Assembly: GCA_030612665.1 (NCBI GenBank)
Contig: JAUWNL010000002.1
Coordinates: 1 to 58,461, forward strand
Source of the DNA: an archaeon
GTDB taxonomy: Archaea; Nanobdellota; Nanobdellia; Pacearchaeales; UBA284
Reading direction: 5' to 3'
DNA length: 58,461 nucleotides
The notes under the pieces were generated by a model. It saw only the letters and a program-made list of their open reading frames with translations, was not told the DNA's origin and searched no databases. Each line of letters begins with the position of its first letter. Position 1 is the first letter of the stretch. A program made the translations under genes and the position numbers. Shown here one piece after another: positions 3,510 through 20,632 of the stretch.

Positions 3510-3559
3510 AATAAAATTATAAACACAATCTTTATAAATTGTATGATTTTCTTTCAAAA

Positions 3560-5047
3560 ATGAGGTCAAAAGAACTAAGGAACATAAAACTGAATAAGAA
3601 AAAAGTTAAGAGAGTCCTTTTCATAAATCTAAGAAAAACTAGTGCCGGAGTTAATACCCCCCACATGGGGCTTGCTATATTAGCAACAATTTTGAAAAAA
3701 AGAGGTCATGATATTCTTGTAATAGACCAACAATTAATCCATAATCTGCCTCCAATTAATTCTTTTATTGATAAATTTAAACCAGATGTAATTGGAGTAA
3801 GCATCTATACTGCAAACGTTCCTGAAGTAGATCATCTTATTGGAATAATTGAAAAAGAATATCCCTCCATTCCTCTAATTGTTGGAGGACCTCATGGAAC
3901 TTTATATTATGATAATATGCACTTGAAAAATGAAAAGTTTATTGATTACATTTTAATAGGAGAAGCAGAGTTAACAATCATATCTACTATAGAAAAAGCA
4001 AAAAAAGAAAAAAGATTCAAGTTGATAAAAACAAAAGAAATTGTGGATATCAATGATTTGCCTTTTCCAGATTACAAGGTTTTTTATGGATGGAAAAATA
4101 TCAGGGCATATCCGATAATGACTTCTAGGGGATGCCCTTATAGATGTAGTTTTTGTCCTGTAGCTTCTCTTTCTACAAGAAAATGGAGATCAAGAGATCC
4201 AGAAAAATGTATAGAAGAATTAGAATTAGCTAAAAAAGAATTGTCCCCACACTTACGTGTTCTTGTACAGGATGATAATCCTTTAGTAGACAAAAAAAGA
4301 TTTTATCACTTTCTTAAGATGTATATTAACAAGAAAATAAACATGAGAATAGATGTTTTGAATATCAGAGCAGATAGTATTAATGAAAAATTAATCTCCT
4401 TTTTTAAAAAAATTGGATGTGATTCTATAGGGGTCGGAGTAGAGCATGCCCACCCAAAAGTATTTGAAAAAATAAACAAGGGAGAAACACTGGAACAGAT
4501 AGAAAAAGCTGCAGCATTATTAAAGAAACATAAGATGCTTGGAAGTTTTTCATTTATTATAGGATTGCCTGGAGATAATCTTGAAAGAATAAAAGAAAAC
4601 ATAAAACTTGTTAAAAAATTCAAACCAGATTCTGTTTATTGGAACATGTTGGTTCCTTATGAAAAAACACAGGTAAGAAAATGGTTTTTAGAACATGGAA
4701 AAGTTTACAATGAAATTGGGCATACTTCATTAGTTGATACAGATTTTATTTGTGATGAACCTTGTGTGGAAAGTCCGGATTTCACAAAAGAAGAAAGAAA
4801 AAAGGCTCATTATCTCTATCTTTTTGGAACAATAGATGACAGACTTAAAATAATAAAGATTTTTAGAATTCTAAAAATAGTAAAAAAATATAATCTTTAT
4901 AGAGAATTCATATATTGGTTTCCAAGAGGATTAATCAAATCTCTTAAAAGAAAGATAGAATTGATAAAAAAAGCTCATTCATATTCTCATAGGGAGGGAT
5001 TGATAAAAACTATTAAAAGAGCTCTTTTTTTAGTTAGAGGAAAATAA
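3560..5047 (+). CDS. B12-binding-domain radical SAM enzyme (class B rSAM), paralog 1
   Basis: N-terminal Rossmann-like region (GLAILATILKKRGHDILVID, IVGGPHGT) followed by CxxxCxxC in SRGCPYRCSFC. ATG at 3560; the longer ORF starts at a TTG at 3539. Confidence 0.85.
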   Translation: MRSKELRNIKLNKKKVKRVLFINLRKTSAGVNTPHMGLAILATILKKRGHDILVIDQQLIHNLPPINSFIDKFKPDVIGVSIYTANVPEVDHLIGIIEKEYPSIPLIVGGPHGTLYYDNMHLKNEKFIDYILIGEAELTIISTIEKAKKEKRFKLIKTKEIVDINDLPFPDYKVFYGWKNIRAYPIMTSRGCPYRCSFCPVASLSTRKWRSRDPEKCIEELELAKKELSPHLRVLVQDDNPLVDKKRFYHFLKMYINKKINMRIDVLNIRADSINEKLISFFKKIGCDSIGVGVEHAHPKVFEKINKGETLEQIEKAAALLKKHKMLGSFSFIIGLPGDNLERIKENIKLVKKFKPDSVYWNMLVPYEKTQVRKWFLEHGKVYNEIGHTSLVDTDFICDEPCVESPDFTKEERKKAHYLYLFGTIDDRLKIIKIFRILKIVKKYNLYREFIYWFPRGLIKSLKRKIELIKKAHSYSHREGLIKTIKRALFLVRGK

Positions 5048-5061
5048 GAAGTTATTTTATA

Positions 5062-5409
5062 TTATTTAACTACTAAGAAAACTCCTGCCAATATTAAAGC
5101 TATTCCTAACCATTTAATTGCTGGAAATGGTTCCCCAAGAAACAATTTTGCGAAAATTGCAGTCCATATGTAGCTTGTTGCTATAATTGGATAAATAACT
5201 GAAACGTTTCCATATTTAAGAGACCATATAAATAAGACTCCTGCAACAAGATAAATTGCTGCTGCTACAATTAGCCATTTATTTGTAAACCAAGTTAAGG
5301 GATTAAAAGAGAAGGTTGGAGCACTTAGTTTATAAAAAATCTGGCCTGCAGCAGTAAGTAAGGCGCAAAAAAGGATAATTGCTATGATTATTATAGGGGT
5401 TGAAGTCAT
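5062..5409 (-). CDS. small EamA/SMR-like membrane transporter (ArnE/ArnF-sized)
   Basis: 115 aa, four hydrophobic helices, EamA-like C-terminal half (GEPFPAIKWLGIALILAGVFLV). Confidence 0.6.
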   Translation of the reverse strand: MTSTPIIIIAIILFCALLTAAGQIFYKLSAPTFSFNPLTWFTNKWLIVAAAIYLVAGVLFIWSLKYGNVSVIYPIIATSYIWTAIFAKLFLGEPFPAIKWLGIALILAGVFLVVK

Positions 5410-5458
5410 TATTCACTAAGTATTTAAATATTTAAAAATATTTGCTTTGAGACATAAA

Positions 5459-6160
5459 ATGATAAATATTTTAATTCCAGTCTATAATGAAGAGAAAATT
5501 CTAAAGAATAATGTCTTAAGGTTAAGAAATTTCCTTGACAATAATTTAAAAAATGATTACAAACTTTTTATTGTCGATGGAAAAAGTGAGGATAATACAG
5601 AAACAATTGGAAGACAGTTGGATAAAAAACATAAAAATATCACTTACTTAAAAACCAATATAAAAGGAAAAGGAGCACAATTAAAAAAAGCCTCTCTTTT
5701 GATAGAAGGAGATTATTTTGCTTTTGTGGATGTTGACTTTCCAATTAAATTTGAAGAAATTCTCCAAATACTCGATTCTCTAATAAAAAATAAAGCAGAT
5801 TTTATTATTGGAAGTAGAAATATAGGAAACAAAAAGATTGATAGACCTGCAATAAGAAAAATAACTTCTAAGGCATATAATAAAGTAGCAAGGTTCATGC
5901 TTAATATATCTCTAAGTGATACACAATGTGGCATCAAAGCATGGAATTCAAAAATTAACAAGATTTGGATGCAAGTAAAAGATGAAAAATGGTTTTTTGA
6001 TACCGAATTATTATATCATTCTATAAAAAAGGGACATAAAATCCTAGAGATTCCAGTAAGTTATTCTGACAGGAGAAAAGAATCAAAAGTTTTTCCAATT
6101 AAAGATAGTATCTATTTTATAAAAAGTCTTCTTAGATTGAAATTTAAATCCTATCAATAA
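5459..6160 (+). CDS. GT2 polyprenyl-phosphate glycosyltransferase (Dpm1/ArnC-like)
   Basis: ILIPVYNEE, DGKSEDNT and FVDVDF (DxD) motifs. ATG at 5459; the ORF track starts at a TTG at 5447. Confidence 0.8.
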   Translation: MINILIPVYNEEKILKNNVLRLRNFLDNNLKNDYKLFIVDGKSEDNTETIGRQLDKKHKNITYLKTNIKGKGAQLKKASLLIEGDYFAFVDVDFPIKFEEILQILDSLIKNKADFIIGSRNIGNKKIDRPAIRKITSKAYNKVARFMLNISLSDTQCGIKAWNSKINKIWMQVKDEKWFFDTELLYHSIKKGHKILEIPVSYSDRRKESKVFPIKDSIYFIKSLLRLKFKSYQ

Positions 6161-6216
6161 AACAATTATAAAAAAACATATAAAACTTAATAAGATAGAT
6201 TTTATGTTCTAAAAGA

Positions 6217-7734
6217 ATGAAGATCTTATTAATAAACCCGCCAGAAACTTCTTTAAAAAATAATCTAACTTTTATTGGATTACCTCTTGGATTATTATAT
6301 ATTGCTGCGATTTTAGAAAAAGAAGGAAAACAAGTTAAGATATTTGACTCTTTTATTTATAATGAAAAATTGATTGAGAAAAATATTGGGGATGGAATGA
6401 AACATGTGGGGGCATCATGGAAAAGAATCAAAAAAGTAATAGAAATGAATAATCCAGATATTGTTGGTATTTCAAATCATTTTAGTTCACAAATAGAGAA
6501 TAGTTTAAAGGTTGCACAAATTGCTAAGAAAATTAATAAGAAAATAAAAGTAATCCTTGGAGGGGCACATGGATCCTCAAATCCGCAGGATTTTTTTAAA
6601 GAAAAGTATGTAGACTTTGTTATAATGGGCGAAGGCGAATTTTCTTTTTCTAAATTGATTTATGAATTAGAAAGAGAAAAACTAGGCAAAAAAGCAAGAT
6701 TAAACAAGATAAATAATCTAGCTTATATAAAAAATAAAAAGATTAAGGTAAATCCCTTAAAGCATATTTCAAATTTAGATGAATTGCCTCTCCCTGCATA
6801 TCATCTCATCAATATGGAAAATTATCTTAAATTAATTAGGGGTGGTAGAGGAAGGATAACTTTAGAGACAAAGAATGATGAAAGAATTAGCATGATTACA
6901 TCAAGAGGGTGTCCTTTTAATTGTATTTTTTGTTCAATTCATGGCCATATGGGTAGAAAATGGAGAGCTCATTCAAGCGAATATGTAATGAAACATATTT
7001 TATACTTAGTTAAAAATTATAAAATAAATCATATTAGTTTTGAAGATGATAATCTAACTCTAGATATTGCACGTTTTGAAAGAATTTTAAATGGAATAAT
7101 AAAGAATAAGATAAAAATAAGCTGGGACACTCCAAATGGAATTAGAGCAGATACACTTAATTTTAGGTTATTGCAAAAAATGAAAGAAACAGGATGTAGT
7201 TCATTAAAAATTGGAATTGAATCTGGAGATCAGGAGGTTATAAATAAAATTGTTGGAAAAGCTCTTGATTTAAAGAAAGTTGTTAGAACAGCGTCGATGT
7301 GTCATAAATTAGATATTCCTTTAACTGGTTTTTTTGTTATTGGGATGCCTGGAGAAACTAAAAAGAATATAATGAAAACAATAAATTTTGCTATCATGTT
7401 AAAGAAAAAATATGATATGGATTCTGTAGTGCATATTGCTATGCCATTAATTGGGACAAGAATGTATGAGATAAGTAAAAAAAAGAATTATTTAGTTCAT
7501 GATTCTAATCCTTCTGATTTTTCTGGAATTCAAAATTTGATGATAAAGACTGAAGAATTTGATCCAGAATTTTTAAGAAAAGCCAGAAAAAAATATTATG
7601 ATATCTATTTAAAATTACAATTTGGTTGGTTATTTAAAAATCCAAAAAAACTTTTAAGATACATCATGCAAATAAAAAATCCTCAAAAATTCTTTAAAAT
7701 ATTTGGTTTTGTAATTAAATATATAAAGAAATAA
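6217..7734 (+). CDS. B12-binding-domain radical SAM enzyme, paralog 2
   Basis: MKILLINPP N-terminus, LGGAHGS, and TSRGCPFNCIFC (CxxxCxxC). Confidence 0.85.
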   Translation: MKILLINPPETSLKNNLTFIGLPLGLLYIAAILEKEGKQVKIFDSFIYNEKLIEKNIGDGMKHVGASWKRIKKVIEMNNPDIVGISNHFSSQIENSLKVAQIAKKINKKIKVILGGAHGSSNPQDFFKEKYVDFVIMGEGEFSFSKLIYELEREKLGKKARLNKINNLAYIKNKKIKVNPLKHISNLDELPLPAYHLINMENYLKLIRGGRGRITLETKNDERISMITSRGCPFNCIFCSIHGHMGRKWRAHSSEYVMKHILYLVKNYKINHISFEDDNLTLDIARFERILNGIIKNKIKISWDTPNGIRADTLNFRLLQKMKETGCSSLKIGIESGDQEVINKIVGKALDLKKVVRTASMCHKLDIPLTGFFVIGMPGETKKNIMKTINFAIMLKKKYDMDSVVHIAMPLIGTRMYEISKKKNYLVHDSNPSDFSGIQNLMIKTEEFDPEFLRKARKKYYDIYLKLQFGWLFKNPKKLLRYIMQIKNPQKFFKIFGFVIKYIKK

Positions 7735-8364
7735 TTATTTTCTAAAAACTTGAACTGCTTCTAAAGAAAAAATAAATGGAAAAAAGGCAATTGGTAATTT
7801 TATCCTTTTTATTTCAAGAAGATTAAATTCCTTTTTCATCTGTTTAGGATTAAATGAGTTAATATGGTCTTTTATTTTTGGGGGTCTTATTCCTAAAAGA
7901 AATCTTGAAATTGTTAAATTTTTTTCATTTGGATAACTAATAATAATAATCCCCTCTTTTTTTAAAAGATTACTCAAATTTAAAATAACTTTCTTATAAT
8001 CCTGAATGTGTTCAAGAACATCTTGACAAATGATAATATCAAAATATTCTTTTGAAATATTTAATTTAGTAAGATCTTGTAATGAAAATTTTGCTTTAGG
8101 AACTCTTTTTTTTGCAGATTCAAGTGCTACTTTTGTTATATCAAAACCAAAAAGAAGATGTTTTGGATTGAGATTGTAGATCTTTTCTAAGAGATGGCCC
8201 TCTCCACAACCTGCATCTAAAATTTTTAATTCTCCTTCTTTTGGAATAAAATTGATTATATCATTAAGCCTTTGATTATGAAAAAATCTGACAAAAGGAT
8301 TTTTTGATCTATAGAGTTTATTCATATGATTCCTTTCCATTATTAAATAAGATGATTTTTGCAT
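7735..8364 (-). CDS. class I SAM-dependent methyltransferase
   Basis: Motif I ILDAGCGEGH and motif II-like DIIICQDVLEHI. Confidence 0.75.
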   Translation of the reverse strand: MQKSSYLIMERNHMNKLYRSKNPFVRFFHNQRLNDIINFIPKEGELKILDAGCGEGHLLEKIYNLNPKHLLFGFDITKVALESAKKRVPKAKFSLQDLTKLNISKEYFDIIICQDVLEHIQDYKKVILNLSNLLKKEGIIIISYPNEKNLTISRFLLGIRPPKIKDHINSFNPKQMKKEFNLLEIKRIKLPIAFFPFIFSLEAVQVFRK

Positions 8365-8438
8365 GAATTAAAGGATATCTTTTTATATATAAATTTTTAG
8401 TTCGAAATATTAATAAATGGCCCCATTTATGTTAAGAG

Positions 8439-9914
8439 ATGGCTGATATAATTCTAATTCAACCAAAGGCTGGGGAGTATGAGGCTGCAGGAATAAGGCC
8501 TCCTGATTCTTTATTAGCTGCGGCAGCATTACCTCACGAAAAAGGGTATAATATTAAGATTATTGATCAAAGAACTGATAAAAATTGGAAAATGCTTCTG
8601 AAAAATCACCTAAAAAATGCTTTATGTATGGGGACTACAGCAATGACAGGACAACAGATAAAATATGCTCTCGAAATATCAAAATTTGTTAAAGAAAACT
8701 CTGACGTGCCTGTTATCTGGGGCGGAGTGCATCCATCATTACTTCCAGAACAAACTCTCAAAAATAAGTATATAGATATTGTTGTTAAGGGAGAAGGGGA
8801 TTACACATTTTATGAGCTCATAATAGCAATTGAAAAACAGAGGAAAAATCCAAATAAAGACTACCTGAAAAATGTGAGGGGGATTTATTACAAAAAAAAT
8901 GGAAAAATAATAAGAACAGAACTTAGGCCATTTTTACAAGACCTAGACAAATTACCAAATTTACCTTATGATTTAGTAAATATGAATGATTATTTTGGTT
9001 TTACAATTAAAGAAGGTAAATCAATAACCCTAATGACCTCTAGAGGTTGTCCTTTTAGATGTGCATTTTGTTATAATACTGTTTATTATAAAAATAAATG
9101 GAGGGGAATGTCTGCAGAGAAAACTATTGAAAGAATAAAATATGTTAAAGATAAATTTGGTGTAAAAAATATCTATTTTCAAGATGATAATTTTTGCGCA
9201 AATGTACCCAGATTCAAAAAAATAATTGATCTTATTCTCAAGGAAAAAATAGATATAACCTGGGGATTGCTTGGCTCAAGAATTAATTCTTTAAAATATA
9301 TGGATGAGAAATTTTTGGCTAGAGTTGTCAAGGCGGGATGTATAAATATTGATGTTGGAATAGAATCTGGAAGTCAAAGAATATTAAATTTAATCTGTAA
9401 AGATATTGACTTAAAAGAGGTCATAGAAGTAAATAAGAAGATTTCTAAATTTTTTACAAAGACAAAATATACTTTTATTATGGGAATACCTTCAGAGACA
9501 GAAAAAGAATTACTGCAATCCATTAGATTTGCTTTAAAATTATGTAAAGATAACTCCCATGTATTACCTATTTTTAATATTCTTTTTGTTAATCCAGGAA
9601 CCGCAATGCATAATCTTGCATTGAAATATGGATATAATGAACCAAAAAATTTGGAAAAATGGGCAAATTCTGGCAGAGAAGGAGAATATAAAGAATATCC
9701 TTGGCTCTCTAAAAAAATGATAAAAATGATGGAAAATTTTGAATTCACTTCTTTTTTTGCAACAAAGAATATAGATTATAAAATAAGTAAAAAGTATCTA
9801 AAACTGCTGGCAAAGGTCTATCAACCAATTGCTAAATACAGATTTAAGAATAATTTTCCACATTTTCTCATTGAAAAGAGGCTGGCTAGTGTGTTATCTA
9901 GAAGTGTAAAATGA
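8439..9914 (+). CDS. B12-binding-domain radical SAM enzyme, paralog 3
   Basis: WGGVHPS and TSRGCPFRCAFC motifs, with the same architecture as paralogs 1 and 2. Confidence 0.85.
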   Translation: MADIILIQPKAGEYEAAGIRPPDSLLAAAALPHEKGYNIKIIDQRTDKNWKMLLKNHLKNALCMGTTAMTGQQIKYALEISKFVKENSDVPVIWGGVHPSLLPEQTLKNKYIDIVVKGEGDYTFYELIIAIEKQRKNPNKDYLKNVRGIYYKKNGKIIRTELRPFLQDLDKLPNLPYDLVNMNDYFGFTIKEGKSITLMTSRGCPFRCAFCYNTVYYKNKWRGMSAEKTIERIKYVKDKFGVKNIYFQDDNFCANVPRFKKIIDLILKEKIDITWGLLGSRINSLKYMDEKFLARVVKAGCINIDVGIESGSQRILNLICKDIDLKEVIEVNKKISKFFTKTKYTFIMGIPSETEKELLQSIRFALKLCKDNSHVLPIFNILFVNPGTAMHNLALKYGYNEPKNLEKWANSGREGEYKEYPWLSKKMIKMMENFEFTSFFATKNIDYKISKKYLKLLAKVYQPIAKYRFKNNFPHFLIEKRLASVLSRSVK

Positions 9915-13344: not shown

Positions 13345-13375
13345 AACTTAAAAATAAAGGAAATTAAACAGGTAC

Positions 13376-14095
13376 ATGATTAAAGAAAAATTAGTTTTGG
13401 CAATAATCCCTTCTAGAGGAGGGTCAATTGGTCTGCCTAAAAAAGGTATTAAATTATTAAATGGAAAGCCTCTAATTGCTTATACTATTGAAAAAGCTAA
13501 AAAATCTAGATATATTGATCGGATAATTGTTCTTACAGATTGTAATGAAATAGCTGAAGTAGCAAAAGAGTATGGTGCAGAGGTTCTTATGGAACCTCAA
13601 AAAGCTCCAAATAATAGACCAGATATACAATTTTTTAGATATGCTATCAAAAAACTTGGGGATGATGAAAATTTTAAACCGGATATCATCATTAACTTAA
13701 GGCCGGATACTCCTTTAAAAACAAAAGAGTATATAGATGCCTCAATAGAAAAATTAATTGAAACAAATGCCGATTGTGTAAAAACAATATGTAAAGCACC
13801 GATACACCCACATAAAATGTGGAAGATGGAGGGAGACAAATTAATTCCCTTTCAAAAAACCAAACTTTGGATTAAAGAAGGTCCAGATGTTGCAAGACAG
13901 AGATTACCTAAAATTTATTGGCAAAATGCTGCGGTTGATGTTTTTAGAAGAGAAAACTTATTTAAATATGACTATATTTTTGGCGATGGATTAGATATTC
14001 GAGGAATAGTCATGACAAGAGAAGAATCTATTGACATAGACACCCCTCTAGACTTCTATATGGCAGAGATTATTTTAAATAAAAAGGAAAAATAA
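13376..14095 (+). CDS. neuA: acylneuraminate (nonulosonate) cytidylyltransferase, CTP_transf_3 family
   Basis: N-terminal AIIPSRGGSIGLPKKGIKLLNGKPLIAYTI is typical of CMP-NeuAc/CMP-NulO synthetases. Confidence 0.8.
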   Translation: MIKEKLVLAIIPSRGGSIGLPKKGIKLLNGKPLIAYTIEKAKKSRYIDRIIVLTDCNEIAEVAKEYGAEVLMEPQKAPNNRPDIQFFRYAIKKLGDDENFKPDIIINLRPDTPLKTKEYIDASIEKLIETNADCVKTICKAPIHPHKMWKMEGDKLIPFQKTKLWIKEGPDVARQRLPKIYWQNAAVDVFRRENLFKYDYIFGDGLDIRGIVMTREESIDIDTPLDFYMAEIILNKKEK

Positions 14096-14104
14096 TTCAT
14101 AAAA

Positions 14105-14809
14105 ATGATAAAAGCCATAATATTCGACGTTGATGGAGTAATTTTTGATACAAATAAGATTAAGGAAAAAGTTTATGAAGAAAAAATATTCAGGGAATAT
14201 TCAACGCATGATAAAGTAAAATTAAATAGATTAATAGATGCAGCTAAAAAAATAGAGAATCCAAATAGATATAGCATCATTAATTTCATTGTTAACAAAT
14301 TAGTAGAAATAAATTGGTATAGTGAAAATAAAAACAAATTAATAAATGAAAAATTAAAAAAATATGAATTTGAAACTGATTTAGCCTATGAAACAGCTTC
14401 TTTTATCCCCGGAGCAGAAGAATGTATAAAAGAATTCAGTAAAAAATATTTTTTATGTATAAATACAACCATCCCTCAAAAGAAAGTAAAAGAAATATTA
14501 AAATTAAGGAGGATAGATAAATATTTCAGAATAATTTTAGGGATTACAATCTCTTCAAAAAAAAATAAAAGAGATAATATTGGGATAATGCTAGACAAAT
14601 TAAAATTAACTCCGAATCAAATTATTTTCGTTGGAGATGGTGAAAGAGATAGAGAATGTATAGAAAAATTCCGCGGGATGCATTTTATTGCTGTCAGAAA
14701 TGAATTTAATGACTTTAAGACAGAAAAGGGAATAAGTTATAGTTTAGATGATGGAACTCTTTACAAACTTCCTGAAATAATCAAAAAAATAGAAAATAAT
14801 TTACCATAA
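14105..14809 (+). CDS. HAD-superfamily hydrolase/phosphatase
   Basis: DxDG motif IIFDVDGVI and motif IV VGDGERD. Its 3' end overlaps the convergent neuB-like gene by 9 nt. Confidence 0.65.
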   Translation: MIKAIIFDVDGVIFDTNKIKEKVYEEKIFREYSTHDKVKLNRLIDAAKKIENPNRYSIINFIVNKLVEINWYSENKNKLINEKLKKYEFETDLAYETASFIPGAEECIKEFSKKYFLCINTTIPQKKVKEILKLRRIDKYFRIILGITISSKKNKRDNIGIMLDKLKLTPNQIIFVGDGERDRECIEKFRGMHFIAVRNEFNDFKTEKGISYSLDDGTLYKLPEIIKKIENNLP

Positions 14810-16327
14810 ATTAAACTTTGTTTTTCTTAAACTTAAATCCTTAGGAACCTTTTCATCAAGATAATAAGAATCTCCTTTTATATGTGTCGTAGATATCTCT
14901 TCAAAAATTACTCCATTCTTTGTTGTAAAACTATGCGGAGCATTTCTAGGGATAATCACTTGGTCTCCAGGACCAAGAACTTTCTGTTTTCCACAAAAAT
15001 TAATTATAAGATCCCCATGAAGTACTTGAAAAGACTCTTCCTTTTGTTTGTGAAAATGATTTGGATGAACCTGGCCTGGGACCTGAATAATTAATTTTTT
15101 GCAGTAATCCCTATTTATGCAGTCTATAATTGTAGCTCCTATTTTTTCGAAATTATTAATTCCATAATGGTGAGAAAGTTCTACTTCAAAATTATTTCCA
15201 ATAGGTGTGCCAGATTCATTTAATAGCCCTTTAATCTGATGCATCACTTCAAATACAGAAGAATCCAGGCTCTTATCTCCACAATAATCAATTTGTTCCT
15301 TAGCTTTATAATCTCTATTAGCAACAGTCCCCTTCTTTAAAGTCCCATCATAACCAAGCATTCCTTCTTCAAAAAGGTCTACAGGCATTTGCCCATCTTG
15401 CAATGGAATTGCAAAGAAAACATTGTCTTTATTAAAAATTTCTCCTTGTTTAATATCTTTTTTTGCAAATACCCCCCTTTTGAATAAATTTAAAGCTTCT
15501 TCCTCTTTTTTAGGGATTTCCTTTTTAAGTTTACATGAATTTAAAGCAATCTCTGCAGCAGATAGCCAGGCATCTAATTGAGATGGATTCAAAGAGTAAG
15601 CATTCAATTTTATTTCCTCTGTTTCTAATCCAAGATGTTTTTCAAATATTTTTGCTCCTTTAGAAATAGCCATTTTAATAGCATCTAGATTATTTGGTTC
15701 TTCATGAGAAGAAAATCCTATTTTTAAGAAAGGATATCTCTTGTGCAACACATCTATTCTATTAAGGTTCAAGTCTTCTGGTTTAGTAGGATAAATAGCT
15801 ACACAATGCAACAATGCAAATTGCGTATTTCTATGGGTGAAAAAACTTACTACTTTATCTAATTCTTTTATAGTCAGGCCCCCCGTAGAACATATAAGGG
15901 GTTTGTTTACAGTAGTAATTTTTTTTAATAATGGCCAATCTTGAGCTGAACAACTTCCAATTTTTATTATATCTACCCCATGTTTAACAATTAAATCTAC
16001 AGATTCTTCGTCAAAAGGAGTGCATATAGAAATCAATCCCTGAGCTTTAATCTCATTTACGATTTTTTTAAATTCTTCCGGACTAAGGCTAGTACTTAAA
16101 AATCTTTTTATGCTTTTAGCATATTTTTCATCAGTTGTATCCTTAAAATCTGGATGAATGAAAGTATCATAGTGACGATACTGTAATTTAATAGCAACTT
16201 TAAGATTATGTTTTTTGATTACTTTTGCTGCTTCTTTAATAATATTTATTCCGTGTTCTACGCTTCCCTGGTGATTATTAGCCATGTCTAATATAAACAA
16301 ATTTTCAAAAATATCCTGATTACCCAT
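14801..16327 (-). CDS. neuB: N-acetylneuraminate (nonulosonate) synthase NeuB domain + SAF-like segment + C-terminal cupin
   Basis: FILDMANNHQGSVEHGINIIKEAAK and KIGSCSAQDWPLL are NeuB motifs. The C-terminus has an exact cupin motif 1, G-x5-HxH-x4-E-x6-G (GQVHPNHFHKQKEESFQVLHG), and a motif 2-like GDQVIIPRNAPH. Confidence 0.8.
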   Translation of the reverse strand: MGNQDIFENLFILDMANNHQGSVEHGINIIKEAAKVIKKHNLKVAIKLQYRHYDTFIHPDFKDTTDEKYAKSIKRFLSTSLSPEEFKKIVNEIKAQGLISICTPFDEESVDLIVKHGVDIIKIGSCSAQDWPLLKKITTVNKPLICSTGGLTIKELDKVVSFFTHRNTQFALLHCVAIYPTKPEDLNLNRIDVLHKRYPFLKIGFSSHEEPNNLDAIKMAISKGAKIFEKHLGLETEEIKLNAYSLNPSQLDAWLSAAEIALNSCKLKKEIPKKEEEALNLFKRGVFAKKDIKQGEIFNKDNVFFAIPLQDGQMPVDLFEEGMLGYDGTLKKGTVANRDYKAKEQIDYCGDKSLDSSVFEVMHQIKGLLNESGTPIGNNFEVELSHHYGINNFEKIGATIIDCINRDYCKKLIIQVPGQVHPNHFHKQKEESFQVLHGDLIINFCGKQKVLGPGDQVIIPRNAPHSFTTKNGVIFEEISTTHIKGDSYYLDEKVPKDLSLRKTKFNLW

Positions 16328-16439
16328 TTTAACATATTTCTTAGATAAAATTGATATATAAAGATTATGAAAAATAGGTTATAGAGAATAAGAAGGAGCA
16401 TTAATAAGTTTTATAAAGGGAAAAGTAAATATTAAAATA

Positions 16440-17525
16440 ATGACAAAAAAAATACTCGCAGTTAGTCAACATGCTGGCGGTTCTAATGCAATTTCTCCTG
16501 TAATAAAAAAGCTTAGTGAGAATGGAGAAGATGTTTTGACTTTGGACTATGGTGCTAGCCTCTTCAAAGAATATGAAATCCCAACCCATAACCTGGATGA
16601 ATTTGGAGTTAAAAAACTTACTAAAGAAAACTTAGAAAAAATTATTAAAGAAACGATGCGGGAATTTGTACTAACTGGAACTTGTGTTAAAGAAAATTAC
16701 TCAATTGATCAATTAGCTATCCTGGCTTCAAGAAAGATATGTCCTTCTTTATCTGTATTAGACACAGGCCAGGAATATTTAGAAAGATTTAAAACAAAAA
16801 CCGGAGAATGGATCTTGCCTGATAAAATAGCAGTAATCAATGAACAGATTAAAAAAAGCATGGTAAAATTAGGTTTCTCTGAAAATATCTTGGAAGCAAC
16901 TGGAAACCCTTATTTTGATTCGTTATTGGGATTTGGAAAAAAGAATAAAGAAGAATTGAGAAAGAAGAATGGAATATTAAATAAAAAATTTATTATTTCT
17001 TTTTTATCCCAGCCTATTCAAAAACGCTATGGGAACCAGTTTGGATTTAATGAAAAAGATTGTTTTGAAATTCTTTTATCTGCTATAAATCATCTTCAAG
17101 AAAGAGAAAAGATTTTAGCTCTATACGTCAAGCATCGTTCAGAAGATGAAGGAAGTTTTGATGATATTATTAGTAGATACAAAGATGTGGGGGTAAATAT
17201 TGAAAAAAATAGTAGTCACCCAAGAGAGGCTATTCTTATTTCAGATGTCACCTGTACCTTTTTTTCTACTTCAGCATATGAATCTGTTGCAATGGGTATT
17301 CCAGCAATATCTATTCAACCAAAAAAAACTTCTGGCTTTTTCATACATGAATTAAGCGAATATATTCCAATTTTTAGAAATAATGAAGAAGTAAGTAAGG
17401 AAGTATATCAATTTATGATGGATGAAAACTATCGAAAAGAGAGGGTTGAAAAATTAAAAGAGGTAAAAGTGGATGGCAAGGCAACTGAAAGAGTGGTTAA
17501 TTTAGTTTATAGAGTATTAAATTAA
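16440..17525 (+). CDS. hypothetical protein, possibly GT-B/epimerase-like
   Basis: Clean 361-aa ORF in the glycan island. No confident motif; the C-terminal ISDVTCTFFSTSAYESVAMGIPAISI resembles the tail of GT-B enzymes. Confidence 0.3.
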   Translation: MTKKILAVSQHAGGSNAISPVIKKLSENGEDVLTLDYGASLFKEYEIPTHNLDEFGVKKLTKENLEKIIKETMREFVLTGTCVKENYSIDQLAILASRKICPSLSVLDTGQEYLERFKTKTGEWILPDKIAVINEQIKKSMVKLGFSENILEATGNPYFDSLLGFGKKNKEELRKKNGILNKKFIISFLSQPIQKRYGNQFGFNEKDCFEILLSAINHLQEREKILALYVKHRSEDEGSFDDIISRYKDVGVNIEKNSSHPREAILISDVTCTFFSTSAYESVAMGIPAISIQPKKTSGFFIHELSEYIPIFRNNEEVSKEVYQFMMDENYRKERVEKLKEVKVDGKATERVVNLVYRVLN

Positions 17526-17526
17526 A

Positions 17527-18984
17527 ATGAAAATTCTTTTAATAAATCCCCCAATAAGAGAAAACGAAAAACCGTCTGTATTTCCTTCAGGAATAGGATA
17601 CCTTGCTGCTTACTTAATTAAAGAGGGTTATGATGTTGGAGTTTTAGATATTAATGGTTATCGTTATAATCGGGGGAGCGTAGTTAATATATTAAAAAAA
17701 CATCTTTTAGAAAATAAGATGGAGGTGGTTGGAATAGGAGGTTTGATAACATGTTATGATTATATTAAATGGTTAATCCAGATAATTAAAAAAATTAAAC
17801 CAAAAACAAAAGTTATTGTTGGTGGAGGAATAGGCAGTTCTATTCCAGAAAGGTGTATTAACAATTTAAAAGCAGATATTGTAGTCACCGGAGAAGGGGA
17901 GATTACAATTGTTAATTTATTAAAGAAACTTGAAAATAATAAAAGGTTATCGGAAGTAAGGGGGATATTATTCAAAAAAGGAGATAAAATCATAAGAACG
18001 CCTCCCCAAGAGCGTATAAAGAATTTAGATGAATTGCCCTTTCCAAGCTGGCATCTATTTCCAATGCAAATTTATCTTAAAAACCAATTTGAAGTTGAGG
18101 CTATAAATACTGGAAGGAAAAGTATTAGCATTATAGGGGGCAGGGGCTGCCCATATCATTGCACTTTTTGTTATGAAATTTTTAATCATGTAGCAATAAA
18201 AAGATCTATAAAAAATATTATAGAAGAAGTTAAAACATTGCAGAGGAGGTATAATATAAAAATAATTTATTTTATAGAAGATTTATTTGCAATTAATAAA
18301 GATTGGATAACAAACTTTTGTGATGAACTTATAAGACAAAAAATTAAATTGAAATGGTTATGTACTGCTAGAGTGAATATTGCAGATGAAGAAATGCTAA
18401 AAAAAATGAAGGATGCTGGATGCATTCTTGTTAACTTTGGGATTGAATCTGGAAGCCAAAAAATGTTGAATATTATGAAAAAGGGTATAACTCTTGAACA
18501 AGCTAGTAAAGCAATAAATATTACAAGAAAAATTGGGCTTAAATTAAATTTGAGTTTTATGATAGGTTTCCCAGAAGAAACTAAAGAAACTTTAGAAGAA
18601 ACAATTAAATTTTGTATAGAGAATGATATTCATCTAACCAGCATATTCTTTGTTACACCTTATCCTGGAACAGCATTATATGAACAAGTTAAAAAAATAG
18701 GTTTAATAAAAAATGAAGAAGAATTTATAAGCAAGTTAGGAGATGCCACTGAATTAACAATAAATTTAACTAGATGGAGTGATGAAGAGTTATTCAAATT
18801 AAGAAACCATGTCATAAAAAAAATAAGGAAAGCTTATTTTAAAAAGCACAAAACAGAACAATTAAGATGGTATTTTAAAAAAATTAAATGGTTTTCACAA
18901 TCATTAAGAAAAAGAGGGATAAAAGAGATGACCAAAAAAATTTTAATAAAAATAAAAAATAAATTGGGGGATAAAAAATGGTAA
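17527..18984 (+). CDS. B12-binding-domain radical SAM enzyme, paralog 4
   Basis: MKILLINPP N-terminus, VGGGIGSS, and GGRGCPYHCTFC (CxxxCxxC). Confidence 0.85.
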   Translation: MKILLINPPIRENEKPSVFPSGIGYLAAYLIKEGYDVGVLDINGYRYNRGSVVNILKKHLLENKMEVVGIGGLITCYDYIKWLIQIIKKIKPKTKVIVGGGIGSSIPERCINNLKADIVVTGEGEITIVNLLKKLENNKRLSEVRGILFKKGDKIIRTPPQERIKNLDELPFPSWHLFPMQIYLKNQFEVEAINTGRKSISIIGGRGCPYHCTFCYEIFNHVAIKRSIKNIIEEVKTLQRRYNIKIIYFIEDLFAINKDWITNFCDELIRQKIKLKWLCTARVNIADEEMLKKMKDAGCILVNFGIESGSQKMLNIMKKGITLEQASKAINITRKIGLKLNLSFMIGFPEETKETLEETIKFCIENDIHLTSIFFVTPYPGTALYEQVKKIGLIKNEEEFISKLGDATELTINLTRWSDEELFKLRNHVIKKIRKAYFKKHKTEQLRWYFKKIKWFSQSLRKRGIKEMTKKILIKIKNKLGDKKW

Positions 18985-19193
18985 GCGAAATTGTGTTAAT
19001 AATTGGGGTAATTGTCGCATTGATAATAGGATTGATTATTGGAATTTATCTAGGATTCATGACTTACAGAAATGACACTGGAAAAATAAGAAGATTTTAC
19101 AATGAAAGAGAGAATGGAGAAAAAGAAATAGCAGAATTAAAAAGAAGATGCAGGGAATTAGAAGATAAAATTAAGATTTATGGAATAAAGTAA
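18978..19193 (+). CDS. small single-pass membrane protein with coiled-coil tail (hypothetical)
   Basis: 71 aa. The TM helix IVLIIGVIVALIIGLIIGIYLGF is followed by a charged helical tail. The start overlaps the upstream stop by 7 nt. Confidence 0.3.
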   Translation: MVSEIVLIIGVIVALIIGLIIGIYLGFMTYRNDTGKIRRFYNERENGEKEIAELKRRCRELEDKIKIYGIK

Positions 19194-19201
19194 AGGAAAT
19201 A

Positions 19202-20632
19202 TTATGACTTTACATTAACTCCAAATTTATGACGAGTATCTTTACGCCATTGTTCAATTTCTTTCATACTAATCCCTTGTATTCTTGCAATAGCTTTTTT
19301 TCTTTCTTCTGACTTAAAATTTATCCTGTCCCATTCAAAAGCGCGCAATATCTGTAGTTCTTTGGATGAAAATTCTTTAGTAGATATAACCCCACGGGTA
19401 TAACCAATTAGAATATTTTTATTAGCATCTTTTGGTAAATGCCCTTCTTTAATACATATCTCCATTAATTCTGTGTTTGGAAGGGGGGTTGCTATATGAA
19501 AATTAACTAAATCAACATTAATCTTTTCAGCAAAAGAGAAAGTGTCTCTTATTTGTTCCCAGGTTTCATGAGGGAATCCTATTACAAAATTAGCAATTAT
19601 TTCAAAGCCCTTCTTTTTTGCCATATTTAGAATACTTGGTACTTTCTCAAGTTTAATTGGTTTTTTAATTATATTATTAAGTACCTGCTGGTTCCCTGAT
19701 TCTATTGAGACAGTAATCTGATAGCAACCACTTTTTTTCATAAGGTCGAGTATTTCTTCGTCAAGGAGGAATATTGTTAAATTAACACATTTCCAGAGTA
19801 GGTTGTATTTACGTTTGATTAGGCCTTTCATAATATGTATTGCCCGTTTACGACTGAATAAGAAATGATCATCTAAAAAAATAATTTCTTTTATGCCTTT
19901 TTTATACAAATCATCAATTTCCTTAAGAACATTCTCGGCGCTTCTCATACGCACTCTTCTACCACTAATTTTTGGGCCTGAACAGAAAATACACTTATAG
20001 GGGCAACCTCTAGAGGTTATTGTAACTGCATATGGATATCTCCTTGCACACAATCCTTGCGAGTATTTAAGTTTTTGATTAGCATAATCCATTAAATTAA
20101 GGTTTCCATAATCAGCAAAAGGTATAGAATCTAAATTCTCAATATAATTATCTAGGGGGTTTATCCTTGCTTTGTTATTTTCATAATAAGCTATTCCTTT
20201 AATCTGAGATAAGTCAGGTTTCTGTTTATCCATTTCTTTTAATAAACTAGGAAAAACTGTTTCACCTTCCCCAATTATCCAATAATTTACATTTTTATCT
20301 TTCATTGCAATATCAATTAATAGTGTTGGTAATATGCCCCCTTCTATTATTATTGTGTGGGGTAGCGCGCGCCTTATCAATGCGGTCGTATGTTGAACAT
20401 TTTTTATATATTCTGTTGAATTTGTGCTTATGCCTACAACCTCAGGCTGAGCTTTTTTAAGTGATTCTACAATTTCCTCGTCACTTAGATTCTTAAAGTT
20501 AGGGTCAAAAATCTCTGTCTTGAAACTTTTCTTAATACATGCGTTTAGGATGCCTAAAGAGTATGGATACATCTTCCATGTTCTTTTGCCAAACATCGAA
20601 TAATTTGGTTGCATTAAAACGACTTTTTTCAT
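19202..20632 (-). CDS. B12-binding-domain radical SAM enzyme, paralog 5
   Basis: TSRGCPYKCIFC. The start at 20632 (MKKVVLMQPN) matches the N-termini of the paralogs; the longer ORF to 20686 overlaps the upstream gene. Confidence 0.85.
   Translation of the reverse strand: MKKVVLMQPNYSMFGKRTWKMYPYSLGILNACIKKSFKTEIFDPNFKNLSDEEIVESLKKAQPEVVGISTNSTEYIKNVQHTTALIRRALPHTIIIEGGILPTLLIDIAMKDKNVNYWIIGEGETVFPSLLKEMDKQKPDLSQIKGIAYYENNKARINPLDNYIENLDSIPFADYGNLNLMDYANQKLKYSQGLCARRYPYAVTITSRGCPYKCIFCSGPKISGRRVRMRSAENVLKEIDDLYKKGIKEIIFLDDHFLFSRKRAIHIMKGLIKRKYNLLWKCVNLTIFLLDEEILDLMKKSGCYQITVSIESGNQQVLNNIIKKPIKLEKVPSILNMAKKKGFEIIANFVIGFPHETWEQIRDTFSFAEKINVDLVNFHIATPLPNTELMEICIKEGHLPKDANKNILIGYTRGVISTKEFSSKELQILRAFEWDRINFKSEERKKAIARIQGISMKEIEQWRKDTRHKFGVNVKS

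What the first reader, a model, noticed from the sequence alone, without database searches (positions are those of the whole stretch)
3560..20632. Five paralogous B12-binding (class B) radical SAM enzymes embedded in one glycan locus
Seen: five 477-505-aa ORFs share an N-terminal Rossmann-like domain and a (S/G)RGCP-x2-C-x-FC cluster. They are at 3560-5047, 6217-7734, 8439-9914, 17527-18984 and 19202-20632. They are interleaved with class I methyltransferases, GT2/GT4/GT-C transferases and nucleotide-sugar genes. Established: characterised class B rSAM enzymes (GenK, GenD1, Fom3, HpnP) methylate unactivated carbons, including carbons on sugars. Related archaeal members (GrsA/B) modify lipids. 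Inference: five copies in one island suggest serial C-methylation or other radical tailoring of a surface glycan or a lipid-linked intermediate. That density has no characterised precedent I know of in archaeal glycosylation loci.
Basis: partly seen in the sequence, partly recalled or inferred. Interest (0 to 1): 0.7.

Follow-up and report, generated by a model that had tools for sequence, protein, structure and literature searches.

The report
Five radical-SAM sugar-tailoring enzymes, one island
An uncultured archaeon carries five different cobalamin-type radical SAM enzymes inside one 34-kb surface-sugar gene island; relatives of each enzyme sit in sugar-biosynthesis operons across bacteria and archaea, which points to an unstudied kind of radical sugar tailoring.

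Summary
Five ORFs (3560-5047, 6217-7734, 8439-9914, 17527-18984 on +; 19202-20632 on the minus strand) each carry a PF02310 B12-binding domain, a PF04055 radical SAM core and an intact CX3CX2C motif. They are only 24-27% identical to each other. They are therefore five old, separate subfamilies, not recent duplicates, and none reaches the cut-off of any curated NCBIfam family.

Comparative genomics supports sugar tailoring and argues against lipid work:
- Relatives of copy 4 lie between a CMP-sugar synthetase and a NeuB-type synthase (sialic-acid-like sugar operons) in many phyla.
- Relatives of copy 5 lie in a conserved heptose/thiamine-enzyme/methyltransferase cassette in all six loci examined.
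- Relatives of copies 1-3 lie among GT2/GT4 glycosyltransferases, flippases and methyltransferases, including in a cultured Methanobacterium.

Related archaeal contigs carry five or more such genes. Arrays of 3-8 are frequent in metagenomic loci and, where annotated, include glycosyltransferase genes, so the density is not unique, only uncharacterised.

The chemistry is not shown. C-methylation is the best guess. Dehydration or ring contraction (as in AprD4 and HpnJ) remain open, and so does real cobalamin use. "Serial action on one substrate" is not supported: at least two copies belong to different sugar pathways.

The parts
3560..5047 (+). rSAM_1: B12-binding domain plus radical SAM. A largely archaeal subfamily (DPANN lineages and Methanobacterium).
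   Evidence: Pfam. Homologues of 42-74% identity are named Woesearchaeota, Pacearchaeota, Nanoarchaeia and Methanobacterium. Orthologue contexts L166 and L167 are glycan loci.
6217..7734 (+). rSAM_2: B12-binding domain plus radical SAM. Best NCBIfam hit is the Sden_1168 family (225 bits, cut-off 575).
   Evidence: Orthologues in L001 (602 bits) and L002 (427 bits), and in L097 and L101, where it lies next to (L101) or one GT4 gene away from (L097) an rSAM_3 orthologue in polysaccharide loci.
8439..9914 (+). rSAM_3: B12-binding domain plus radical SAM. Its stop overlaps the start of the 470-aa membrane protein by 4 nt.
   Evidence: Orthologues in L097, L101, L128, L137 and L082.
17527..18984 (+). 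rSAM_4: B12-binding domain plus radical SAM. This subfamily is linked to nonulosonic-acid (NeuB / CMP-synthetase) operons. It starts 1 nt after the upstream GT-B gene.
   Evidence: AF2 model with pLDDT 90.9 shows the class-B architecture.
19202..20632 (-). rSAM_5: B12-binding domain plus radical SAM. A highly conserved subfamily (57-77% identity across domains) embedded in a heptose/thiamine-enzyme/methyltransferase cassette.
299..1662 (+). Unknown 249-aa protein plus a FemAB-like protein. The pair is conserved at the left edge of the island in L166.
1643..2788 (-). GT4 glycosyltransferase.
2949..3569 (-). Class I SAM methyltransferase (MT_a), divergent from rSAM_1.
5062..5409 (-). Small (115 aa) EamA-family membrane protein; candidate flippase subunit for a lipid-linked sugar.
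   Evidence: A similar small EamA gene lies in the dense B12-rSAM array of L030.
5447..6160 (+). GT2, of the polyprenyl-phosphate sugar synthase type.
   Evidence: Pfam. Best PDB hits are Pyrococcus Dol-P-Man synthase 5mlz and ArnC.
7735..8364 (-). Class I SAM methyltransferase (MT_b). Its orthologue in L001 holds a similar position in the module.
9911..11323 (+). Multi-pass membrane protein of 470 aa; possible GT-C-like transferase or polymerase (unconfirmed).
   Evidence: Orthologues in L001 and L166.
11461..13344 (+). GT-B protein with weak similarity to the BFO_1060 / TIGR04396 families (candidate nonulosonic-acid transferase).
   Evidence: The L001 orthologue also hits PF07388, the polysialyltransferase family.
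13376..14095 (+). CMP-ulosonic-acid cytidylyltransferase (CTP_transf_3; PseF/KdsB-like).
14105..14809 (+). HAD-family phosphatase.
14801..16327 (-). NeuB-family synthase fused to a C-terminal cupin domain.
   Evidence: The same fusion lies next to an rSAM_4 relative in Hungatella MAG locus L021.
16440..17525 (+). Second GT-B protein with weak BFO_1060/TIGR04396 similarity, directly upstream of rSAM_4.
20659..21768 (-). Unknown 369-aa protein immediately upstream of rSAM_5 on the minus strand, probably co-transcribed with it.
21952..24653 (.). Heptose-nucleotide genes: HldE adenylyltransferase domain (21952-22467 +), GmhB-like phosphatase (22457-23017 +), GmhA (23047-23619 -), HldE kinase domain (23616-24653 -).
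24662..25651 (-). NAD-dependent sugar epimerase/dehydratase.
25648..26830 (-). E1 beta-like and E1 alpha-like thiamine-enzyme pair. Both are shorter than their counterparts in related loci.
   Evidence: compared.
26834..27883 (-). Radical SAM/SPASM protein without a B12 domain.
27893..29680 (-). Acetolactate-synthase-like thiamine enzyme (595 aa). A 595-aa counterpart is present in L168 and L169.
29694..31237 (-). Class I methyltransferase (MT_c) and a short-chain dehydrogenase. Both are parts of the conserved rSAM_5 cassette.
31362..33084 (+). Radical SAM protein without a B12 domain (355 aa), plus class I methyltransferase MT_d.
33120..34688 (-). Wzx-type polysaccharide flippase; marks the right edge of the island.

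Best explanation
The five genes encode five distinct subfamilies of class-B-type (Rossmann B12-like domain plus radical SAM core) enzymes. They act as sugar-tailoring enzymes in a modular surface-glycan island of about 34 kb (roughly 300-34700) in a low-GC archaeon, probably of DPANN type. At least three modules can be told apart. (a) Genes 1643-11323 form a membrane-proximal module: GT4, a Dol-P-sugar-synthase/ArnC-like GT2, a small EamA protein, a large membrane protein and two class I methyltransferases, with rSAM_1, rSAM_2 and rSAM_3 interleaved. I infer that these three enzymes modify a lipid-linked or nascent sugar. (b) Genes 11461-18984 form a nonulosonic-acid module: two candidate transferases, a CMP-synthetase, a HAD phosphatase and a NeuB-cupin synthase, ending in rSAM_4. 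I infer that rSAM_4 tailors the 2-keto-3-deoxy acid sugar or its precursor. (c) Genes 19202-31237 form a heptose-derived module: HldE, GmhA, GmhB, a dehydratase/epimerase, thiamine-dependent carbon-carbon ligases, a dehydrogenase, a methyltransferase, an SPASM radical SAM protein and rSAM_5. I infer that rSAM_5 acts on the nucleotide-activated sugar. The most likely chemistry is 5'-deoxyadenosyl-radical hydrogen abstraction from an unactivated sugar carbon followed by methyl transfer from methylcobalamin, as in GenK. What is shown: domain content, intact cluster motifs, distinct orthologous groups, and conserved sugar-gene neighbourhoods. What is inferred: the substrates, cobalamin use, and methylation as the outcome.
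For: Domains and motifs are intact. The AF2 model of rSAM_4 (pLDDT 90.9) matches QCMT/MgmA, TsrM, OxsB, CysS and TokK with TM-scores of 0.62-0.68. The N-terminal domain aligns at sequence level with true cobalamin binders: OxsB and TsrM from profile position 3, CysS from 40, TokK from 60, QCMT from 93, including the GEGE motif. AprD4 aligns only from position 159. rSAM_4 linkage to nonulosonic-acid genes: among loci from one-per-species genomes, 5 of 7 closest relatives (340 bits or more) have CTP_transf_3 and/or NeuB within 10 kb. The fraction falls to 7/21, 4/33 and 0/19 with decreasing similarity. With the metagenome set as control, Fisher p is about 2e-5. The genes are co-oriented and tightly packed: gaps of 3 nt on both sides in Hungatella locus L021, which has the same NeuB-cupin fusion, and 28 and 53 nt in L004. 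L005 is a PseB-PseC-...-rSAM-PseF-...-NeuB-Wzx operon. rSAM_5 cassette: HldE, GmhA, epimerases, E1 alpha/beta, a dehydrogenase and a methyltransferase, with or without the 595-aa thiamine enzyme, occur in the window, L084, L085, L168 and L169, and partly in L083. One homologue is fused to a class I methyltransferase (P0130). rSAM_1-3: syntenic archaeal loci L001 and L166; a Methanobacterium sp. SMA-27 locus with GT4, Wzx, PMT_2 and GT2; and L097 and L101 with GT4, Wzx and a carbamoyltransferase. The GT2 resembles Dol-P-Man synthase and ArnC. No lipid-synthesis gene and no RiPP precursor turned up in any annotated neighbourhood.
Against: No biochemical data exist for any of the five subfamilies. 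None reaches a curated family cut-off. The radical SAM core is most similar in sequence to AprD4, a non-methylating, cobalamin-free sugar dehydratase. HpnJ and BchE, which are not methylases, are among the top NCBIfam hits. The fold search cannot separate cobalamin binders from AprD4, which scores TM 0.70. The subfamilies are common in CPR bacteria, DPANN archaea and Omnitrophota. By general knowledge these lineages usually cannot make cobalamin, so either they scavenge it or the domain is used differently. The closest rSAM_2 relatives in some metagenome loci (L088, L094) showed no recognisable sugar genes with these probes.
Confidence: 0.6

Rival explanations
1. The substrates are the same (sugars in glycan pathways) but the chemistry is not methylation. 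Some or all of the five would catalyse radical dehydration or deoxygenation (as AprD4 does), epimerisation, ring contraction to a carbocycle (as proposed for HpnJ and Cds), or carbon-carbon coupling. Cobalamin would be absent or would serve as a radical or electron relay.
For: AprD4 is the best PDB sequence hit for four of the five copies and for the rSAM_4 family profile. HpnJ is the best or second-best NCBIfam hit for copies 2-5, and BchE is best for copy 1. HpnJ and Cds are radical SAM enzymes proposed to contract a sugar already attached to a lipid, and GrsA/B are B12-domain radical SAM enzymes that are not methylases (PMC13459092). AprD4 and ArsL carry Rossmann-like domains without binding cobalamin (PMC12931638). 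The island already has four class I methyltransferases for ordinary methylation.
Against: The N-terminal domains align with true cobalamin-binding domains and not with the N-terminal domain of AprD4. Most characterised class-B enzymes are methylases (general knowledge). One rSAM_5 homologue is fused to a methyltransferase, which fits a methylation-rich pathway but does not decide the question. All scores to HpnJ, BchE and AprD4 models are far below their cut-offs.
Confidence: 0.3
2. They modify membrane lipids (as GrsA/B, Gmm or the hopanoid methylases do), and their position in a glycan island is incidental.
For: B12-domain radical SAM enzymes are prominent in archaeal lipid tailoring (PMC13459092). 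The C-terminal tails of copies 1-4 are basic and amphipathic. There are weak hits to the ladderane-lipid family TIGR04072 (98-128 bits, cut-off 360).
Against: All five subfamilies recur inside sugar operons in unrelated lineages, often translationally coupled to sugar genes. No lipid-biosynthesis gene was seen in any neighbourhood. Relatives occur in bacteria that have no archaeal lipids.
Confidence: 0.05
3. They are peptide or protein maturases (RiPP or protein C-methyltransferases such as ApyD, PoyC-type enzymes or QCMT).
For: QCMT/MgmA is the top structural match. ApyD and RiPP C-methyltransferase models give moderate hits. More distant loci combine B12-rSAM arrays with SPASM proteins (L054, L108, L159).
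Against: All scores are far below the family cut-offs. No precursor-peptide, protease or transporter set typical of RiPP clusters is present here. The neighbours are sugar enzymes.
Confidence: 0.04

Closest known systems
GenK / GenD1 (gentamicin) class-B radical SAM sugar C-methyltransferases
   Same: Same enzyme class (B12 domain plus radical SAM core).
   Different: They belong to antibiotic (aminoglycoside) pathways of actinomycetes, with one or two per cluster. Here the enzymes sit in cell-surface glycan, nonulosonic-acid and heptose pathways, with five per island. No direct sequence comparison was possible.
AprD4 (PDB 6fd2), radical SAM 1,2-diol dehydratase of apramycin biosynthesis
   Same: Best PDB sequence match to the radical SAM core (55-101 bits for four single copies; 132 bits for the rSAM_4 family profile). 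TM-score 0.70. Its substrate is a sugar.
   Different: AprD4 binds no cobalamin and does not methylate (PMC12931638). Its N-terminal domain does not align with those of the five proteins. Scores against the NCBIfam AprD4 model are 40-113 bits, cut-off 500.
HpnJ (hopanoid cyclitol-ether formation) and Cds (calditol synthase)
   Same: Radical SAM enzymes proposed to remodel a sugar that is already attached to a lipid. HpnJ works next to the glycosyltransferase HpnI. HpnJ is the top or second NCBIfam hit for copies 2-5.
   Different: Scores of 84-192 bits fall far below the cut-off of 577.6. There are no hopanoid or calditol genes here. The HpnJ reaction is a ring contraction, not a methylation.
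QCMT / MgmA (PDB 9ccb), archaeal methyl-coenzyme M reductase glutamine C-methyltransferase
   Same: Top Foldseek hit for the rSAM_4 model and a true cobalamin-dependent radical SAM methylase of similar size.
   Different: Its substrate is a protein. TIGR04014 scores are 73-159 bits, cut-off 360. There are no methanogenesis genes here.
Sden_1168 / PhpK families (B12 radical SAM P-methyltransferases)
   Same: Best NCBIfam hit for copies 2 and 5 (225 and 191 bits), aligned over nearly the full length.
   Different: The cut-off is 575. No PEP mutase or other phosphonate gene is present in the island.
GrsA/GrsB and Gmm (archaeal GDGT ring synthases and methylase)
   Same: Archaeal radical SAM enzymes with a B12 domain and a C-terminal helix.
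   Different: Their substrates are lipids and their genomic context is unrelated to sugar genes. Not compared by sequence here.

Membership tests
Radical SAM superfamily | CX3CX2C motif binding the [4Fe-4S] cluster within a partial TIM-barrel core (PF04055) | tested here: met
   All five have the motif and PF04055 hits of 84-94 bits. The motif is kept in 322 of 322 family homologues checked.
Class B (cobalamin-dependent) radical SAM enzymes | N-terminal Rossmann-type B12-binding domain (PF02310) preceding the radical SAM core | tested here: met
   PF02310 scores are 46-73 bits, threshold 32.1. The rSAM_4 family profile aligns through this domain with OxsB, TsrM, CysS, TokK and QCMT but not with AprD4. 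The AF2 model shows Rossmann, barrel and C-terminal helices.
Class B (cobalamin-dependent) radical SAM enzymes | Actual binding and catalytic use of cobalamin | not testable with these tools
   No universal sequence signature exists. AprD4 and ArsL show that a Rossmann-like domain can be cobalamin-free (PMC12931638). This needs UV-vis or cofactor analysis of purified protein.
Class B radical SAM methyltransferases (GenK, Fom3, TokK, HpnP type) | Methyl transfer to the substrate, with S-adenosylhomocysteine and 5'-deoxyadenosine as co-products | not testable with these tools
   This is a biochemical feature.
HpnJ (TIGR03471) | Score at or above the curated equivalog cut-off (577.6 bits) | tested here: not met
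   84-192 bits.
BchE (TIGR02026) | Score at or above the curated equivalog cut-off (481 bits) | tested here: not met
   116-179 bits. There are no bacteriochlorophyll genes.
AprD4 family (NF033070) | Score at or above the cut-off (500 bits) and full-length alignment | tested here: not met
   40-113 bits, aligned to the core only.
Sden_1168 / PhpK P-methyltransferases (NF038361, TIGR04479) | Score at or above the cut-offs (575 and 600 bits) and a phosphonate gene context | tested here: not met
   At most 225 and 168 bits. No PEP mutase in the island.
QCMT / MgmA (TIGR04014) | Score at or above the cut-off (360 bits) | tested here: not met
   73-159 bits.
GrsA/GrsB GDGT ring synthases | Placement in the Grs clade and occurrence independent of sugar genes | not tested
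Indirect evidence is against membership: sugar-gene context is conserved for all five subfamilies, and relatives are present in bacteria.
Nonulosonic-acid biosynthesis operon (for the rSAM_4 module) | NeuB-family synthase plus a CMP-sugar cytidylyltransferase in one operon | tested here: met
   The window has CTP_transf_3 (13376-14095) and NeuB-cupin (14801-16327) within 4 kb of rSAM_4. The same pairing flanks relatives in L004, L005, L006, L013 and L021 (both genes) and is partly present in L008 and L150, where only the CMP-synthetase was detected. The NeuB and PseF equivalog cut-offs are not reached (155 vs 400 bits; 107 vs 206 bits), so the exact sugar is unknown.

The most novel reading that the evidence does not exclude
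The rSAM_4 subfamily would define a previously unrecognised, cross-domain step in the biosynthesis of sialic-acid-like (nonulosonic) sugars: radical C-alkylation, or another radical remodelling, of the nine-carbon acid or its precursor. Together with the rSAM_5 heptose cassette and the GT2/EamA-linked copies, this would mean that many uncultivated archaea and bacteria (DPANN, CPR, Omnitrophota, Elusimicrobiota, some gut Firmicutes) decorate their surfaces with a class of radical-SAM-tailored, C-methylated or carbon-extended sugars that has not yet been seen chemically and that depends on scavenged cobalamin.
Probability: 0.35. Interest if true: 0.8.

Novelty: new variant of a known kind. Interest (0 to 1): 0.6.

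Why it matters
Class-B radical SAM enzymes form one of the largest pools of enzymes with unknown function. The few sugar-directed members that have been characterised all come from antibiotic pathways. This analysis places five uncharacterised subfamilies in primary cell-surface glycan pathways. For two of them it names a concrete and testable pathway context: a CMP-synthetase / radical SAM / NeuB triad, and a heptose-thiamine-enzyme cassette. Sialic-acid-like sugars shape host recognition, phage attachment and immune evasion, so an unrecognised radical tailoring step, present also in gut Firmicutes such as Hungatella, would widen the known chemistry of these sugars. For DPANN archaea and CPR bacteria it would tie surface-glycan diversity to a cofactor, cobalamin, that these organisms must obtain from their partners. 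A cultured Methanobacterium carries an rSAM_1 relative, which makes one branch experimentally accessible.

Tried and rejected
- An exact look-up of the window's rSAM_4 in public assemblies found nothing, so the source organism is inferred only from homologue names.
- Literature searches for radical SAM together with nonulosonic, pseudaminic or legionaminic acids returned nothing relevant. The one exception is an uncharacterised radical SAM ORF (ORF 13-c) in some Legionella pneumophila LPS loci. One of these searches was too loosely worded and gave only noise.
- The fold search of the rSAM_4 model could not tell cobalamin binders from AprD4, because all score TM 0.62-0.70. The profile-to-PDB sequence alignment was used instead.
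- The GT-C assignment of the 470-aa membrane protein could not be settled. The single-sequence model had pLDDT 52, so no fold search was run. There was no PDB sequence hit.
- Single-sequence probes found no sugar genes around some close rSAM_2 relatives (L088, L094). I treat this as inconclusive rather than negative.
- A phosphonate reading, prompted by the Sden_1168/PhpK hits, was rejected because the island has no PEP mutase.
- Recent tandem duplication was rejected, given 24-27% identity and separate orthologous groups.
- A phylogeny against GenK, GenD1, Fom3, HpnP, GrsA/B and Tes was not possible, because those sequences could not be obtained.

Full report
**1. What is there**

The window has about 29% G+C. 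It is archaeal: subunit D of RNA polymerase passes the archaeal NCBIfam equivalog cut-off (240 vs 153 bits), and a pyruvoyl-dependent arginine decarboxylase and archaeal-type ribosomal genes are present.

- Each has a PF02310 B12-binding domain (46-73 bits; gathering threshold 32.1).
- Each has a PF04055 radical SAM core (84-94 bits).
- Each has an intact CX3CX2C motif and a GEGE-like motif at the end of the N-terminal domain.

The fifth gene is on the minus strand.

**2. The five are not recent paralogs**

Pairwise identity is 24-27%. Each copy has its own orthologous family.
- Homologues of copy 4 score a median of 423 bits to copy 4 and 94-160 bits to the other copies.
- For copy 5 the figures are 682 bits against 97-161.
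- For copy 1 they are 516 bits against 85-100.

None of the five reaches the curated cut-off of any NCBIfam model. The best hits are BchE, HpnJ, Sden_1168, ApyD and PhpK, at about a fifth to two-fifths of their cut-offs.

**3. The island**

Pfam and NCBIfam annotation shows a continuous glycan island from about 300 to 34700. In order it contains:
- an unknown protein and a FemAB-like protein;
- a GT4, methyltransferase MT_a, then rSAM_1;
- a small EamA protein, a GT2, then rSAM_2;
- methyltransferase MT_b, then rSAM_3;
- a 470-aa membrane protein;
- a 627-aa GT-B protein, a CTP_transf_3 cytidylyltransferase, a HAD phosphatase, a NeuB-cupin fusion, a 361-aa GT-B protein, then rSAM_4;
- rSAM_5 and an unknown 369-aa protein;
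- split HldE, GmhB and GmhA;
- an epimerase/dehydratase and a short E1 alpha/beta pair;
- a radical SAM/SPASM protein;
- a 595-aa acetolactate-synthase-like thiamine enzyme;
- a methyltransferase and a dehydrogenase;
- another radical SAM protein and a methyltransferase;
- a Wzx flippase.

The island therefore holds seven radical SAM genes in all.

The GT2 is most similar to Pyrococcus dolichol-phosphate mannose synthase and to ArnC. The two GT-B proteins weakly match the BFO_1060 family. BFO_1060 is the strain FDC 92A2 homologue of Tanf_01245, the Tannerella forsythia pseudaminic-acid-derivative transferase, whose role was shown genetically (PMC5420450).

**4. Copy 4 and nonulosonic-acid operons**

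Homologues at 60-66% identity occur in archaeal MAGs. Homologues at about 45% identity occur in Omnitrophota, Margulisbacteria, CPR bacteria and Planctomycetota.

I fetched 80 loci from one-genome-per-species contigs and probed their ORFs with the window's proteins. The share of loci with a CTP_transf_3 and/or NeuB gene within 10 kb falls as similarity to copy 4 falls:

| Similarity of the focal gene to copy 4 | Loci with CTP_transf_3 and/or NeuB within 10 kb |
|---|---|
| 340 bits or more | 5 of 7 |
| 240-340 bits | 7 of 21 |
| 200-240 bits | 4 of 33 |
| below 200 bits | 0 of 19 |

I used the 80 metagenome loci seeded with copy 2 as a control. There, only a copy-4 orthologue locus (L150) and one weak NeuB hit showed such genes. 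The contrast is 6 of 8 against 12 of 152, Fisher p about 2e-5. This is a rough figure, because the loci are not independent.

The arrangement is tight and co-oriented.
- L004 has gaps of 28 and 53 nt.
- L021 (a Hungatella MAG) has 3-nt gaps on both sides. It carries the same NeuB-cupin fusion as the window (486 bits) and sits in a capsule-like locus.
- L005 (Elusimicrobiota) reads PseB-like, PseC-like, unknown, radical SAM, PseF-like, unknown, methyltransferase, phosphoesterase, ATP-grasp, NeuB, Wzx.

In the window, copy 4 starts 1 nt after the second candidate transferase, within 4 kb of the cytidylyltransferase, the phosphatase and the NeuB-cupin gene.

**5. Copy 5 and a heptose-derived cassette**

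This is the most conserved of the five families, at 57-77% identity between archaea (including a Naiadarchaeum record) and Ratteibacteria, Dehalococcoidia, Omnitrophica and Elusimicrobia.

In L084, L085, L168 and L169, and partly in L083, the gene is flanked by HldE, GmhA, one or two epimerase/dehydratases, an E1 alpha/beta pair, a short-chain dehydrogenase and one or two class I methyltransferases. A 595-aa thiamine enzyme is often present as well. The window has the same parts list between 19202 and 31237. One homologue (P0130) is fused to a class I methyltransferase.

I infer that the cassette makes a branched or carbon-extended deoxy-heptose. This rests on the known roles of HldE, GmhA and GmhB, of NDP-sugar 4,6-dehydratases, and of thiamine-dependent two-carbon transfer in branched-sugar pathways such as yersiniose.

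**6. Copies 1-3**

Copy 1 belongs to a largely archaeal family: Woesearchaeota, Pacearchaeota, Nanoarchaeia and Methanobacterium.

The closest relative (74% identity) lies on a 206-kb metagenome contig, locus L166. Its order is unknown, FemAB-like, GT4, radical SAM, GT2, 466-aa membrane protein, 647-aa GT-B, CTP_transf_3, NeuB. This is the window's left half without copies 2 and 3, so the radical SAM genes behave as exchangeable modules.

In the cultured Methanobacterium sp. SMA-27, the relative lies among GT4, Wzx, PMT_2, GT2 and epimerase genes.

Copies 2 and 3 have orthologues in the archaeal MAG locus L001. That locus carries five B12-domain radical SAM genes in 21 kb, and a sixth (P0247) lies on the same contig. 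Orthologues of copies 2 and 3 are also adjacent in L101 and separated by one GT4 gene in L097; both are polysaccharide loci with GT4, Wzx, a carbamoyltransferase and a methyltransferase-transketolase fusion.

**7. Density is not unique**

Of the 165 loci fetched, 38 have three or more B12-domain radical SAM ORFs and 11 have five or more. The densest ones also contain glycan-type genes.
- L030 has eight such ORFs, plus GT2 genes, a small EamA protein and a plain radical SAM gene.
- L157 has six, plus a GT2 gene, class I methyltransferases and a thiamine enzyme.

This is the same vocabulary as the window's left module. The GT2 resembles Dol-P-Man synthase and ArnC, and it sits with a small EamA protein and a large membrane protein. 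Together these suggest an Arn/Gtr-like route: lipid-phosphate sugar, then flipping, then transfer. Copies 1-3 and the class I methyltransferases would act on the lipid-linked sugar. This is inference only.

**8. Cobalamin and chemistry**

The AF2 model of copy 4 (pLDDT 90.9) has the Rossmann, partial barrel and C-terminal helical layout. Its Foldseek matches are QCMT/MgmA, TsrM, AprD4, OxsB, CysS and TokK, all at TM 0.62-0.70, so fold alone does not decide whether cobalamin is bound.

At sequence level, the family profile aligns through the N-terminal domain with true cobalamin binders: OxsB and TsrM from position 3, CysS from 40, TokK from 60, QCMT from 93. AprD4 matches only from position 159. 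AprD4 lacks cobalamin (PMC12931638). This favours a functional cobalamin domain.

The reaction type remains open.
- Methylation is the commonest outcome in this class.
- AprD4 (sugar diol dehydration), HpnJ and Cds (ring contraction of lipid-linked sugars) and GrsA/B (cyclisation) show the alternatives.
- These subfamilies are abundant in lineages that generally cannot make cobalamin, which is a caveat.

**9. Literature**

No paper in the searchable library combines 'radical SAM' with 'nonulosonic'. The only related mention is an uncharacterised radical SAM ORF in some Legionella pneumophila LPS (polylegionaminic acid) loci (PMC3766260). Within what could be searched, the linkage described here is not characterised.

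**10. Verdict**

The sugar-tailoring reading is supported by conserved context for all five subfamilies.
- 'serial methylation by paralogs' needs correcting, since at least two copies serve different pathways;
- 'C-methylation' is unproven;
- 'unprecedented density' needs correcting, since it is unprecedented only among characterised systems.

The most useful outcome is two concrete, testable pathway assignments: the CMP-synthetase / radical SAM / NeuB triad, and the heptose-thiamine cassette.

Noticed in passing
window 26834-27883 (-) and 31362-32429 (+): Two further radical SAM genes without a B12 domain (one with a SPASM domain) lie in the same island, making seven radical SAM genes in about 34 kb. 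Similar SPASM proteins sit beside NeuB and dehydratase genes in L002 (four copies) and L166 (two copies).
   Followed up: partly
window 14801-16327 (-); L021:11401-12918: The NeuB-family synthase is fused to a C-terminal cupin domain, where L166's NeuB carries a SAF domain. The same fusion (486 bits) lies next to a copy-4 relative in a Hungatella MAG. With the adjacent HAD phosphatase this suggests a Kdn-like route from a sugar phosphate. No aminotransferase is present in the window's island.
   Followed up: partly
window 25648-26830 (-): The E1 alpha-like (209 aa) and E1 beta-like (204 aa) genes overlap by 62 nt and are about 60% of the length of their counterparts in L084, L085, L168 and L169 (321-356 aa). 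No Transketolase_C domain is present. The pair may be truncated or degenerate.
   Followed up: no
P0130 (homologue of window 19202-20632): A 718-aa homologue with 72% identity to copy 5 is fused to a class I SAM methyltransferase domain.
   Followed up: no
L030, L137, L157, L159 (metagenome and MAG loci): Arrays of six to eight different B12-domain radical SAM genes within 12-17 kb. In the two that were annotated by Pfam (L030, L157) they are interleaved with GT2 genes, class I methyltransferases, a small EamA protein and a thiamine enzyme. This is a recurrent, uncharacterised locus type.
   Followed up: partly
window 5062-6160 and 9911-11323: A small EamA protein, a GT2 resembling Dol-P-Man synthase and ArnC, and a 470-aa multi-pass membrane protein resemble an Arn/Gtr-type lipid-phosphate-sugar route. 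The fold of the membrane protein could not be established (AF2 pLDDT 52).
   Followed up: partly
window 21952-24653: The heptose activation enzyme HldE is split into separate kinase (23616-24653, -) and adenylyltransferase (21952-22467, +) genes on opposite strands. It is a single fused gene in L084, L085, L168 and L169.
   Followed up: no
window 38614-38726 (+); 37468-38394; 44545-44630: A stand-alone 5S rRNA gene and four tRNA genes (Gly-TCC, Arg-CCT, Leu-CAA, Leu-AAG) lie just outside the island. The ORF at 38677-39027 overlaps the 5S gene and is probably spurious.
   Followed up: no
window 1-34700 vs 34700-58461: The glycan island has slightly lower G+C (0.24-0.31) than the housekeeping part (0.30-0.33). 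Its gene content differs from the closest syntenic contig (L166 lacks copies 2 and 3). Both points fit a variable, exchangeable surface-glycan region.
   Followed up: partly
C-termini of window 3560-5047, 6217-7734, 8439-9914, 17527-18984: The last 60 residues of copies 1-4 carry a net charge of +9 to +20 and are amphipathic; copy 5 has +6. Bacterial relatives of copy 4 are about 30 residues shorter. This could reflect peripheral membrane association, or merely the lysine-rich proteome of a low-GC organism.
   Followed up: no
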